Virus record (IMG/VR): IMGVR_UViG_3300044673_000097
Coordinates: 21,380-85,379 of that record
Source: a virus
Length of the DNA stretch: 64,000 nucleotides
Strand: one strand, 5' to 3'
The position numbers were made by a program, and so were the translations under genes. Within the stretch, counting starts at the first letter, position 1; every line of letters begins with the position of its first letter. Positions 32,238 through 32,486 of this stretch are shown piece after piece. The notes under the pieces were generated by a model, which worked only from the letters and a program-made list of their open reading frames with translations, did not search any database and had not been told where the DNA came from.

Positions 32238-32486
32238 CCTCCAATGCTCACGCTTCGATCCTCGATCGCGAGGTCAAGGCCTGTCGTTTCCATTTCATTC
32301 TCCTGCCCTGCAATCGATGACGCTTCGATCCGCGATCGCGAGTCGAAGGGCGCGAACGTGCACGCCACGGCATATCCCCTGCAATCGATGGCGCAACGAT
32401 CCTCGATCGTCACCGTCGTGGAGACGGTTTGCGGCGCCGCGTTTCCAGTGCCTGCACCCGTTCACGCTCCAACCTTTTCGCAATCG
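32238..32486 (-). CRISPR. Mini CRISPR array 1 (3 clear plus 1 degenerate repeat, 3 spacers)
   Basis: 36-nt repeat CTCGCGATCGCGGATCGAAGCGTCATCGATTGCAGG (32307-32342) with variants at 32378-32413 and 32238-32272, degenerate copy about 32451-32486; spacers of 34, 35 and 37 nt. Confidence 0.8.

What the first reader, a model, noticed from the sequence alone, without database searches (positions are those of the whole stretch)
32238..32486. Upstream mini-array whose terminal repeat doubles as the cas12f ribosome-binding site
Seen: repeats of 35-36 nt at about 70-nt period with spacers of 34, 35 and 37 nt and an ATTGCAGG 3' end resembling canonical ATTGAAAC-type ends. In the last repeat ATTGCAGG has become ATTGGAGG, supplying the GGAGGT Shine-Dalgarno 5 nt before the TTG start. 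Inference: binding or processing of the pre-crRNA would occlude or remove the RBS, giving built-in autoregulation, and the start of the cas12f mRNA could itself be read as a spacer.
Basis: partly seen in the sequence, partly recalled or inferred. Interest (0 to 1): 0.8.

Follow-up and report, generated by a model that had tools for sequence, protein, structure and literature searches.

The report
Mini-array in a phage dCas12f leader
A soil-phage genome carries a small but genuine CRISPR array directly in front of its nuclease-dead Cas12f gene, and the last repeat has mutated into that gene's ribosome-binding site, which could tie production of the protein to processing of its own guide RNAs, although that link is untested.

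Summary
On the minus strand, three 36-nt repeats sit at a 71/70-nt period with 35- and 34-nt spacers: R1 32412-32377, R2 32341-32306, R3 32271-32236. A truncated fourth copy, R0 (32474-32451), precedes them. R3 reads ATTGGAGG where R1/R2 read ATTGCAGG, which places GGAGG 6 nt before the only plausible start, TTG 32231.

It is a real CRISPR array. All 7 distinct homolog loci I could fetch carry arrays with related repeats. An anti-repeat at 32500-32478 pairs with 22 of the first 23 nt of R3. The scaffold hairpins upstream of it covary. The effector belongs to a small Cas12f-like family in which 0 of 38 aligned members keep the RuvC-I aspartate.

The window comes from an 85-kb rhizosphere phage record with no Cas1, Cas2 or TnpA. 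Other first-stage notes of this scan cover the same locus.

Autoregulation is only inferred. It is physically plausible, because the SD lies just 3' of the tracr:R3 duplex. However, the RBS-in-repeat layout is absent from the closest relative with DNA. RNA-only folding shows no switch, and I have no RNA data.

A CreR-type mechanism (guide against its own promoter) was tested and not supported.

Verdict: a new variant of a known kind, of moderate-to-high interest.

The parts
32606..32631 (-). Promoter/operator-like element (GACAGCGCTG..TTGACAG) about 60 nt upstream of hairpin 1. It is the candidate start of the transcript that carries scaffold, array and effector gene.
Evidence: Aligns 22 of 28 with 49270-49297 on the minus strand. 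The sigma-70 consensus scan found nothing on this strand.
32530..32547 (-). Scaffold hairpin 1 (GCGCCT-GCTGCA-AGGCGC).
   Evidence: Predicted in the MFE fold. It covaries across 9 module copies from the window and L006, with 4 of its 6 pairs changed on both sides.
32507..32526 (-). Scaffold hairpin 2 (GGCGAGG-CATCGT-CCTCGCC), conserved in relatives.
   Evidence: The same hairpin occurs in L007, L008 and L010, and in L003 with a compensatory G-C to U-A change.
32478..32500 (-). tracrRNA-like anti-repeat.
   Evidence: Pairs with the first 23 nt of the repeats: R1 15 WC + 2 GU, R2 18 + 3, R3 18 + 4. The RNAduplex energy for R2 is -46.9 kcal/mol, against -30.4 +/- 2.7 (minimum -40.1) for 300 shuffled repeats.
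32451..32474 (-). R0, a truncated first repeat fused to the anti-repeat through a loop. Together they form a natural single-guide-like unit.
   Evidence: The MFE fold pairs the anti-repeat in cis with GGUUGGAGCGUGAAC. R0 ends GGTGCAGG, like R1 and R2.
32413..32450 (-). Spacer S0 (37-38 nt).
   Evidence: No second match in the phage record.
32377..32412 (-). Repeat R1 (36 nt).
32342..32376 (-). Spacer S1 (35 nt).
   Evidence: Only a 20-nt exact match to one IMG/VR contig, L021, which is probably chance.
32306..32341 (-). Repeat R2 (36 nt), the best-conserved copy.
32272..32305 (-). Spacer S2 (34 nt). It carries AGGAG-N6-ATG, which opens a 26-codon upstream ORF.
   Evidence: A 22-nt exact match to the RBS/ATG region of a gene in an AT-rich IMG/VR contig, L022, is probably chance.
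32236..32271 (-). Terminal repeat R3. Its 5' 23 nt are conserved and pair with the anti-repeat. Its 3' 13 nt are degenerate and carry the SD GGAGG (32242-32238).
30726..32231 (-). Cas12f-like effector gene (501 aa, TTG start), with the RuvC active site inactivated (His249, Pro347; Asp456 kept).
   Evidence: Pfam PF07282 at 5.5e-12. PADLOC Cas12f at 3.7e-34. A PDB profile hit to 8j12/7wju at 1e-31 aligns the family Asn with the RuvC-I Asp.
30145..30729 (-). 194-aa gene with an ATGA overlap on the effector stop. It is DUF3102-like and is conserved next to the system in relatives.
   Evidence: Homologous genes follow the gene or the array in L002, L003, L006, L008 and L010.
29778..30097 (-). Second scaffold module (hairpins 1 and 2 at 30097-30054) followed by three degenerate repeats at a 71-nt period ending TGCAG(G).
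   Evidence: This is not part of the finding but belongs to the same system.

Best explanation
The segment is a functional-format CRISPR mini-array that lies inside the 5' leader of a phage-encoded, nuclease-dead Cas12f-family gene.

**Proposed sequence of events**
1. One transcript probably starts near the promoter-like element at 32606-32631.
2. It runs through a tracrRNA-like scaffold (hairpins 1 and 2, then the anti-repeat).
3. It continues through a truncated repeat fused to that scaffold (a natural single guide with spacer S0), then three 36-nt repeats with two more spacers, and into the effector ORF.
4. The anti-repeat pairs with the 5' two-thirds of each repeat.
5. The effector and a host RNase then generate guide RNAs for RNA-guided DNA binding without cleavage.

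**The terminal repeat**
- R3 is needed only as the 3' boundary of the last crRNA.
- It therefore keeps its tracr-pairing half (22 of 23 positions pair), while its 3' handle has decayed.
- A single C-to-G change turned TTGCAGG into TTGGAGG, which is the Shine-Dalgarno sequence of the TTG start.

**Consequence**
- The SD and start codon sit 6-20 nt downstream of the tracr:R3 duplex. That is where a Cas12f-type RNP holds the repeat handle and the first guide nucleotides.
- Assembly or processing at R3 should therefore change translation of the effector, most likely as negative feedback.

**Shown versus inferred**
- Shown: array identity, anti-repeat, scaffold covariation, dead RuvC, and the position of the SD and start.
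- Inferred: co-transcription, processing, and any effect on translation and its sign.
For: **Repeat statistics**
- This is the only locus in the 64-kb window with at least 28 of 36 identity at 60-80 nt offsets, against 0 such places in 20 shuffles.

**Family context**
- All 7 distinct homolog loci have arrays (L002, L003, L004, L006, L007, L008, L010). Their 36-nt repeats end in related sequences..GTCAGGTGTTCAGAG..GTGTTTGGAG..GCTGCGAG..GTGCAAG.
- L003, L008 and L010 carry an invariant AACACCTGAC in a structured RNA just upstream of the gene. It is complementary to GTCAGGTGT in their repeats.

**Window anti-repeat**
- It pairs 18 WC + 4 GU of 23 with R3 and 18 + 3 with R2.
- The R2 duplex is -46.9 kcal/mol against -30.4 +/- 2.7 for shuffled repeats.
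- The G-U pairs would be C-A mismatches on the other strand, so the RNAs are gene-sense.

**Scaffold**
- In the hairpins, 93% of cells are paired against 84.7% in shuffles (0 of 500 shuffles reach it).
- Six pairs have changes on both sides.

**Effector**
- 0 of 38 aligned family members have the RuvC-I Asp (28 N, 7 H, 2 V, 1 I).
- Pro replaces the RuvC-II Glu in the 5 closest members.
- The RuvC-III Asp is kept in 37 of 38.

**RBS and packing**
- The SD and start positions are read, and the start is fixed by the N-terminal alignment.
- The neighbouring gene uses AGGAGG 7 nt before its ATG, so GGAGG is this phage's SD type.
- No terminator-like site lies on the minus strand between the scaffold and the ORF.
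- Repeat-like elements lie in the effector leader in 3 of 8 distinct loci: the window, L006 and L008.
- A terminal repeat abuts or merges with the next gene's RBS in L003 (repeat ends 10 nt before the ATG) and in L008.

**Spacer target in a relative**
- A spacer in L010 matches 32 of 36 positions in a tail-like gene on another contig of the same MAG.
Against: - There are no RNA data: no RNA run is listed.
- The RBS-in-repeat layout is seen only in this window. In L006, the closest relative with DNA (64% identity), the last repeat ends 36 nt before the ATG and the SD lies in the following segment.
- In L003 and L008 the gene behind the terminal repeat is the DUF3102-like gene, not the effector. 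Close packing of repeat and RBS may therefore be plain genome compaction.
- R3's 3' handle is degenerate, so the effector may no longer bind it.
- RNA-only thermodynamics give no switch. The SD unpaired probability is 0.35 for R3 alone, 0.24 for the full leader and 0.35 after a mock cleavage.
- Cleavage in the duplex would leave the SD on the mRNA and could just as well raise expression.
- None of the window's spacers has a convincing target.
- The promoter is only a resemblance.
Confidence: 0.5

Rival explanations
1. The array and tracrRNA are the same genuine elements, but the SD inside the terminal repeat is a by-product. Terminal repeats decay at their 3' ends, and this phage packs genes without spacers. 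The RBS of the next gene simply ended up on the decayed part, with no selected regulatory role and no meaningful effect on expression.
For: - The phage is tightly packed, with ATGA stop/start overlaps on both sides of the locus.
- Repeat 3' ends in this family are purine-rich and already SD-like: TGGAG(G) in L010, GAGAG in L003, CAGAG in L008, CAGGG here. One substitution is enough.
- In L003 and L008 the terminal repeat abuts the RBS of a different gene.
- The layout is not conserved in L006 or L010.
- No RNA-only switch is predicted.
Against: R3 keeps the best anti-repeat pairing of all three repeats, 22 of 23. tracr pairing next to the SD on the effector's own mRNA is therefore expected whenever both lie on one transcript, and that makes a complete absence of effect unlikely.
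Confidence: 0.38
2. CreR- or tracr-L-type autoregulation at the DNA level. One of the leader-encoded guides (S0 of the natural single guide, S1, S2, or the post-R3 'spacer') directs the dead effector to the promoter of its own operon and represses transcription.
For: - Precedents exist. Degenerate mini-arrays upstream of cas12a repress P_cas12a through partial complementarity (10.1101/2023.03.10.532045, passages read). A natural single guide represses P_cas9 (10.1101/2020.05.21.102756, abstract read).
- The window has a natural single-guide-like unit and a nuclease-dead effector.
Against: - The first 12 nt (exact), 14 nt (1 mismatch), 16 nt (2 mismatches) and 20 nt (4 mismatches) of S0-S3 match nothing in the 85-kb phage record except themselves.
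- Against the promoter-like regions 32560-32800 and 49150-49450, the best ungapped score is 10 of 14 and the longest 5' seed run is 6 nt, which is chance level.
Confidence: 0.05
3. The repeats are DNA operators or iterons for a phage DNA-binding protein, not RNA elements.
For: They are regularly spaced direct repeats in front of a gene. They contain a CGATCG-type palindrome. A promoter/operator-like element lies nearby.
Against: - The repeats are homologous to bona fide arrays of 6 to more than 12 repeats with unique spacers in relatives.
- There is a strand-specific anti-repeat with G-U pairs.
- The scaffold hairpins covary.
- Repeat length (36 nt) and spacer length (34-37 nt) are CRISPR-typical.
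Confidence: 0.03
4. Translation of the effector is set mainly by the upstream ORF that starts in S2 (ATG 32293, AGGAG 6 nt before it). This ORF reads through R3 and stops at TAG 32215-32213, 17 nt past the TTG. Ribosomes on it would melt the tracr:R3 duplex and would couple to, or interfere with, initiation at the TTG.
For: The uORF and its SD are read directly from the sequence. It overlaps the start in another frame.
Against: It is too short to test for coding signal. I could not check conservation. S2 sits where a spacer is expected and has spacer length.
Confidence: 0.04

Closest known systems
Type V-F1 CRISPR-Cas12f with tracrRNA (solved chains 8j12/7wju/8dzj, which I recall as AsCas12f)
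   Same: - The effector is a clear sequence relative: profile E 1.5e-31 to 8j12, PADLOC Cas12f 3.7e-34 and Cas12u3 8e-34.
- It has about 36-nt repeats that are unstructured on their own.
- It has a separate anti-repeat RNA.
   Different: - The RuvC-I Asp is absent in 0 of 38 family members, and the RuvC-II Glu is replaced by Pro in this subclade.
- The array sits in the effector's 5' leader. Altae-Tran et al. state that in almost all conserved Cas12-CRISPR associations the array is downstream (PMC10691335, passage read).
- The system is phage-borne, with no Cas1 or Cas2.
CreR / crRNA-like Cas-regulating RNAs and tracr-L (natural single guide of Cas9)
   Same: A degenerate repeat-spacer unit and a natural single guide lie next to the effector gene. 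The idea is the same: effector level is fed back through its own guide-like RNA.
   Different: - Those act through guide-to-promoter complementarity on DNA. That was tested here and not found.
- The mechanism proposed here is in cis on the mRNA, at an RBS embedded in the repeat.
- My searches found no description of such a mechanism. A term search of PMC10120712 for ribosome, Shine-Dalgarno and translation gave 0 occurrences.
TldR and dCas12f-sigmaE RNA-guided transcription factors
   Same: Both are nuclease-dead TnpB/Cas12f relatives presumed to bind DNA under RNA guidance. TldRs are phage-encoded (abstract starts seen; passages of PMC13472631 read).
   Different: - Those use single guide RNAs with short guides, and no tracrRNA-like species was found. 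Here there is a tracr-like anti-repeat plus arrays with 34-37 nt spacers.
- No sigma factor lies next to the gene; the neighbour is DUF3102-like.
- The profile hit to the dCas12f chain 9n9c is much weaker (9e-11) than the hit to the active Cas12f chain.
- PMC13472631 also mentions a distinct dCas12f cluster near CRISPR arrays. I could not tell whether that cluster is this family.
Re-fusion of tracrRNA with a half repeat into an omega-RNA, and omega-RNA arrays (scenario of Altae-Tran et al. 2023)
   Same: - The window shows tracr fused to a truncated repeat, R0.
- L006 shows tandem copies of the whole hairpin1-hairpin2-repeat-end module, each followed by a variable segment.
- This is the state described in PMC10691335 (passage read).
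   Different: - Here the fused unit coexists with full-length repeats that pair with the same anti-repeat.
- The family is a different, phage-borne one.
- Jin et al. 2025 (Cell, 'Functional RNA splitting') may bear on this. I saw it only as an entry in a reference list.
Virus-borne mini-CRISPR arrays and phage type V systems (a myxophage Cas12m preprint; Cas-phi, recalled)
   Same: Short arrays without adaptation genes on phage genomes, thought to act against competitors or the host.
   Different: The myxophage Cas12m is 610 aa, keeps its RuvC residues and has no recognisable tracrRNA (10.64898/2026.09.14.751636, passages read). This system is dead in RuvC and tracr-dependent.

Membership tests
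Type V-F (Cas12f) CRISPR-Cas | Effector homologous to Cas12f/TnpB, with a RuvC fold and a TNB zinc ribbon | tested here: met
   PF07282 at 5.5e-12. Profile hit to 8j12/7wju at about 1e-31 over positions 244-444. PADLOC Cas12f at 3.7e-34. NCBIfam guided_TnpB scores 76 bits, below its cut-off of 100.
Type V-F (Cas12f) CRISPR-Cas | Intact RuvC D-E-D catalytic triad | tested here: not met
   The window protein has His249 and Pro347 and keeps Asp456. At RuvC-I, 0 of 38 family members have Asp.
Type V-F (Cas12f) CRISPR-Cas | Adjacent CRISPR array of direct repeats with unique spacers | tested here: met
   Three 36-nt repeats plus one truncated copy, with spacers of 34-37 nt. All 7 relative loci have arrays.
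Type V-F (Cas12f) CRISPR-Cas | tracrRNA with an anti-repeat | tested here: met
   In silico only. The 23-nt anti-repeat at 32500-32478 forms 21-22 pairs with R2 and R3, about 6 SD below the shuffled mean, and the adjacent hairpins covary. No RNA evidence.
Type V-F (Cas12f) CRISPR-Cas | Adaptation module (cas1, cas2, cas4) nearby | tested here: not met
   PF01867 and PF09827 have no match in the 85-kb record, and the controls ring. Cas4 was not searched. The module is often absent from virus-borne systems.
Type V-F (Cas12f) CRISPR-Cas | Spacers matching mobile elements | tested here: inconclusive
   Window spacers give no match in the phage collection and only 20- and 22-nt partial exact matches in IMG/VR. 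In a relative, L010 spacer 1 matches 32 of 36 positions in a tail-like gene.
CreR / crRNA-like Cas-regulating RNA | Degenerate repeat-spacer unit beside the cas gene | tested here: met
   R3 with its decayed 3' handle lies directly before the effector start.
CreR / crRNA-like Cas-regulating RNA | Pseudo-spacer partially complementary to the cas promoter, next to a PAM | tested here: not met
   No seed match anywhere in the phage record. The best score against the promoter-like regions is 10 of 14, with seed runs of 6 nt or less.
TldR / dCas12f RNA-guided transcription factors | Nuclease-dead TnpB/Cas12f-like protein under purifying selection | tested here: met
   The same substitutions recur in homologs that share only 33-67% identity, the ORFs are unbroken and the zinc-ribbon cysteines are invariant.
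TldR / dCas12f RNA-guided transcription factors | Single guide RNA whose short guide matches a promoter in the resident genome | tested here: inconclusive
   A single-guide-like unit exists. Its guide has no target in the phage record. The host genome is unknown.
IS200/IS605 TnpB transposon | TnpA (Y1) transposase or transposon ends, and an omega-RNA at the 3' end of tnpB | tested here: not met
   No PF01797 match in the record. There is a single copy in the record. The next gene overlaps the effector's stop codon.

The most novel reading that the evidence does not exclude
The effector's mRNA leader is its own guide-RNA precursor. tracrRNA pairing and binding of the dead Cas12f to an RBS-bearing terminal repeat gate translation in cis. 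The amount of effector would then track the balance between free protein and unprocessed guides. This would be the first RNA-level (translational) autoregulation of a CRISPR effector by its own repeat, found in a phage system caught between the tracr+array state and the fused single-guide state.
Probability: 0.3. Interest if true: 0.8.

Novelty: new variant of a known kind. Interest (0 to 1): 0.6.

Why it matters
- Known self-regulation of CRISPR effectors by guide-like RNAs (CreR, tracr-L) acts on promoter DNA. An RBS built into a terminal repeat would add a translational, in-cis route that needs no target site. It would be a compact design principle for self-limiting expression of small Cas12f-type tools.
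- Independently of that, the array itself is unusual. It sits upstream, in the leader of a Cas12 gene, on a phage, and serves a nuclease-dead effector.
- It stands beside a natural tracr-repeat fusion, so the locus is a convenient natural test case for how tracrRNA+crRNA and single-guide architectures interconvert.
- The whole test object is under 2.6 kb and can be cloned into a laboratory strain.

Tried and rejected

I could not fetch the contigs of the closest homologs P0002, P0004 and P0005, all from Logan assemblies. Conservation of the RBS-in-repeat layout therefore rests on one close relative, L006.
- Rfam gave no credible family for the scaffold in the window (29500-34000) or in six loci.
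- Tandem Repeats Finder did not report the array.
- The sigma-70 and terminator scan found no site on the minus strand between 33400 and 32232.
- No RNA holder was listed among 4 rhizosphere metagenome runs. Laying their contigs gave only short fragments and no variants in the array.

**Spacer targets**
- No second match exists in the phage record. The best was 16 nt with 1 mismatch, E 0.1.
- blastn of the window array and of the L008 array against 50,697 phage records found nothing.
- Exact 20-nt scans of IMG/VR with the two halves of S1 and of S2 gave 2 hits in 4 scans (L021, 20 nt; L022, 22 nt). Neither extends across the spacer, and I treat both as probable chance.
- A degenerate repeat pattern and a hairpin-2 pattern found no other array in IMG/VR.

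**Mechanism tests**
- CreR-like self-targeting was not supported.
- RNA-only occlusion of the SD was not supported.
- RNAalifold on three tracr regions gave a weak consensus (-16.7 kcal/mol, covariation term +0.99). Only hairpin 2 was robust, and I had cut off part of L008's 5' stem.
- The operator/iteron reading was rejected on the evidence given under rivals.

**Not done**
- I ran no structure prediction, fold search or complex prediction.
- The supplements of PMC10691335 (tables of V-U groups and spacer matches) and the extended data lists of PMC13472631 could show whether this family is already catalogued. Supplements were closed and I did not see them.

**Rows left out**
- Alignment A7 took 38 of the 42 family proteins in hand. 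I left out the fragments P0018, P0040, P0041 and P0043.
- It also took 10 of the next-best representatives (P0044-P0052 and P0054; P0053, a fragment, was left out).
- P0018 was also left out of A1.
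Full report
**What the window is**

The window is 64 kb of an 85,379-bp IMG/VR virus record, estimated 88% complete. GC content is about 0.62-0.68 and there is no tRNA. DNA of the region occurs in four rhizosphere metagenome runs.

Around the finding all genes run on the minus strand:
- head/protease 22267-24258
- portal 24923-26380
- large terminase 26390-27763
- an HNH protein
- a DnaB-like helicase further up, at 38301-39848

The finding lies directly upstream of ORF 30726-32231 (minus strand, 501 aa, TTG start).

**The observation**

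The repeat finder reports three copies at 32236-32268, 32306-32338 and 32377-32409, spaced 70 and 71 nt. Read on the minus strand and extended, they are 36-nt repeats:

| Repeat | Coordinates | Sequence |
|---|---|---|
| R1 | 32412-32377 | TGACGATCGAGGATCGTTGCGCCATCGATTGCAGGG |
| R2 | 32341-32306 | TCGCGATCGCGGATCGAAGCGTCATCGATTGCAGGG |
| R3 | 32271-32236 | TCGCGATCGAGGATCGAAGCGTGAGCATTGGAGGTG |

- Spacers are 35 and 34 nt.
- Identities are 30, 27 and 23 of 36.
Its 3' 24 nt (32474-32451, ...AGCGTGAACGGGTGCAGG) resemble the repeat's 3' part.
- In the whole window this is the only locus with 36-mers at least 28 of 36 identical at 60-80 nt offsets. Twenty shuffles gave none.
- R3 carries GGAGG at 32242-32238, six bases before TTG 32231.
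- An in-frame TGA lies two codons upstream. The next possible start, Met33, would delete the conserved N-terminal strand GTLKVEIxKP. TTG is therefore the start.

**The gene**

- P0001 matches Pfam Cas12f1-like TNB at 5.5e-12.
- It matches PADLOC Cas12f at 3.7e-34 and Cas12u3 at 8e-34.
- A profile of 19 family members hits the solved chains 8j12/7wju/8dzj at about 1e-31. From recall, these are AsCas12f.
- In that alignment the family's 'aavNlGv' lies on the chain's 'mgiDLGV', which is the RuvC-I aspartate. 'lEDLt' lies on 'MEDLT'.
- The window protein has His249 and Pro347 at these two positions and keeps Asp456.
- An exhaustive profile search of 1.84 billion representatives finds 32 proteins at E of 1e-79 or better, then a gap to 1e-54.
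- In an alignment of 38 family proteins, 0 have Asp at RuvC-I (28 N, 7 H, 2 V, 1 I). The RuvC-II Glu is present in 28. The RuvC-III Asp is present in 37.
- Ten of the next-best representatives also lack the RuvC-I Asp.

This is a small, distinct, nuclease-dead branch of the Cas12f family. The phage record has no Cas1, Cas2 or Y1 transposase.

**Relatives show the repeats are a CRISPR array**

After removing duplicates (L005 = L006, L009 = L002) there are seven distinct homolog loci. All seven carry arrays:
- L008 has at least 12 repeats of GCAGATCAGAAATGGAAACGTCAGGTGTTCAGAG with 35-36 nt spacers.
- L010 has six of GGCAAAGTCGATCCGTGGACGGTCAGGTGTTTGGAG.
- L003 has two, plus a solitary half repeat.
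- L007 has at least nine.
- L002 has about ten, with variable spacing.
- The distant L004 has eight.
- L006 has tandem single-guide-like modules.

Repeat 3' parts are alike across loci: AAGCGTCATCGATTGCAGGG here, AAGCGTCAACGGGTGCAAG in L006, GCAGCGTCGAGGCTGCGAG in L007 and AAACGTCAGGTGTTCAGAG in L008.

In L003, L008 and L010 a structured RNA lies just upstream of the gene. It contains an invariant AACACCTGAC that is complementary to GTCAGGTGT in their repeats.

One L010 spacer matches 32 of 36 positions in a 931-aa ORF on another contig of the same MAG. That ORF is a tail-like gene (Pfam Gp77 2.5e-9; PHROG minor tail).

**The tracr-like scaffold in the window**

Upstream of the array lie three elements:
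- hairpin 1 (32547-32530)
- hairpin 2 (32526-32507)
- a 23-nt anti-repeat (32500-32478)

The anti-repeat pairs with the first 23 nt of each repeat:

| Repeat | Watson-Crick pairs | G-U pairs |
|---|---|---|
| R1 | 15 | 2 |
| R2 | 18 | 3 |
| R3 | 18 | 4 |

- The R2 duplex is -46.9 kcal/mol, against -30.4 +/- 2.7 (minimum -40.1) for 300 shuffled repeats.
- The G-U pairs would be C-A mismatches on the other strand, so the RNAs are gene-sense.
- In the MFE fold the anti-repeat pairs in cis with the truncated R0 across a short loop. This gives a natural single-guide-like unit followed by S0.
- The two hairpins recur downstream of the next gene (30097-54), eight times in L006 and once in L007.
- On nine copies, 93% of cells pair against 84.7% in shuffles (0 of 500 shuffles reach it). 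Six pairs change on both sides, and slid controls pair at only 27-55%.
- The repeats alone are unstructured.
- No Rfam family matches.

**Transcript context**

- No sigma-70-like promoter or terminator is found on the minus strand between the upstream gene and the ORF.
- An element at 32606-32631 (GACAGCGCTG..TTGACAG) matches 22 of 28 with 49270-49297.
- If it is a promoter, then scaffold, array and effector share one primary transcript.
- GC3 periodicity is absent from about 32560 to 32232.

**Does the terminal repeat regulate the gene?**

For:
- R3 keeps the best tracr pairing of the three repeats although its 3' 13 nt have decayed.
- The SD (R3 positions 30-34) and the start (+5 to +7 after the repeat) lie where a Cas12f-type RNP holds the repeat handle and the first guide bases. 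That placement is established knowledge of Cas12f structures, not tested here.
- Repeat-like units occur in the effector leader in 3 of 8 distinct loci: the window, L006 and L008.
- In L003 and L008 the terminal repeat abuts or merges with the RBS of the following gene.

Against:
- In L006 the last repeat ends 36 nt before the ATG and the SD lies outside it.
- In L010 the last repeat-like unit ends 46 nt before the next start.
- In L003 and L008 the following gene is the DUF3102-like gene, not the effector.
- Repeat ends in this family are SD-like anyway.
- RNA-only partition functions give an SD unpaired probability of 0.24-0.48 in all contexts.
- Cleavage in the duplex would leave the SD on the mRNA.

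A CreR- or tracr-L-type mechanism was tested and not supported. I therefore hold the array identity as near certain and the regulatory coupling as about even odds.

**Comparison with what is known**

- The system works like a tracrRNA-dependent type V-F system, but it fails the catalytic-triad criterion. It is therefore best called a dead-Cas12f CRISPR variant.
- Altae-Tran et al. (PMC10691335, passages read) report three relevant points. Arrays are almost always downstream of cas12. Branches of Cas12f have altered catalytic sites. A half repeat can fuse with tracrRNA and the fused unit can then duplicate into arrays. The window and L006 illustrate that last scenario in a different, phage-borne family.
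- Hoffmann et al. (PMC13472631, passages read) describe dCas12f-sigmaE systems and mention a separate dCas12f cluster near CRISPR arrays. I cannot tell whether that cluster is this family.
- The myxophage Cas12m preprint describes a different, RuvC-intact system without tracrRNA.
- My searches and a term search of PMC10120712 found no description of an RBS embedded in a terminal CRISPR repeat. That is not proof of absence.

**Verdict**

- This is a new variant of a known kind, with interest 0.6.
- Other first-stage notes of this scan describe the same locus (dead RuvC, two modules, natural single guide, promoter copy). My independent tests agree with them and add the evidence from relatives.

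Noticed in passing
window 32606-32631 and 49270-49297 (minus strand): A shared promoter/operator-like element, GACAGCGCTGnAnnTTGACAG, matching 22 of 28. It suggests the CRISPR module is wired to the same regulator as the other site.
   Followed up: partly
window 32213-32293 (minus strand): A 26-codon upstream ORF starts in spacer S2 (AGGAG-N6-ATG). It reads through R3 and stops 17 nt after the effector's TTG, in another frame.
   Followed up: no
window 32462-32770 (minus strand): A 102-aa ORF with a zinc-ribbon-like CPCGG...CGDC motif. Its ATG overlaps the stop of the upstream gene (ATGA). It runs over the promoter-like element, both hairpins and the anti-repeat. Its GC3 signal is weak after 32560 and it has no Pfam or PHROG family.
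   Followed up: partly
window 29778-30097 (minus strand): A second scaffold module (hairpins 1 and 2) and three degenerate repeats at a 71-nt period ending TGCAG(G), downstream of the DUF3102-like gene.
   Followed up: partly
L006 2737-2971 and 5040-5860: Tandem copies of a whole hairpin1-hairpin2-AACCGTCAACGGGTGCAAG module, each followed by 12-50 nt of unique sequence. This is an array of single-guide-like units rather than of plain repeats.
   Followed up: partly
L008 2857-2940: Three copies of only the 3' half of the locus's CRISPR repeat, at a 34/33-nt period, between the tracr-like RNA and the effector start. Each could pair with the anti-repeat GAACACCTGACG.
   Followed up: partly
L010 2437-2472 versus L014 1501-1536: The first spacer of the L010 array matches 32 of 36 positions in a tail-like gene on another contig of the same 10.4-Mb MAG. 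The four mismatches fall at spacer positions 3, 5, 6 and 9, the end next to the preceding repeat.
   Followed up: partly
proteins P0044-P0054: The next-nearest Cas12f-like representatives (E 1e-54 to 1e-44) also lack the RuvC-I Asp and share an xHRGxR motif in 8 of the 10 sampled. A larger inactivated clade may surround this family.
   Followed up: no
window 41048-41087 and 41232-41276: Two blocks of an 11-nt tandem repeat, CGAGGGTCTCG (3.6 and 4.1 copies), 184 nt apart and near the replication genes. They look like iterons.
   Followed up: no
window 30145-30729 (minus strand): The gene coupled to the effector by an ATGA overlap is DUF3102-like by the protein atlas and has a C-terminal coiled coil. 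Homologs follow the effector or its array in L002, L003, L006, L008 and L010. This may be conserved phage synteny or a functional partnership.
   Followed up: partly
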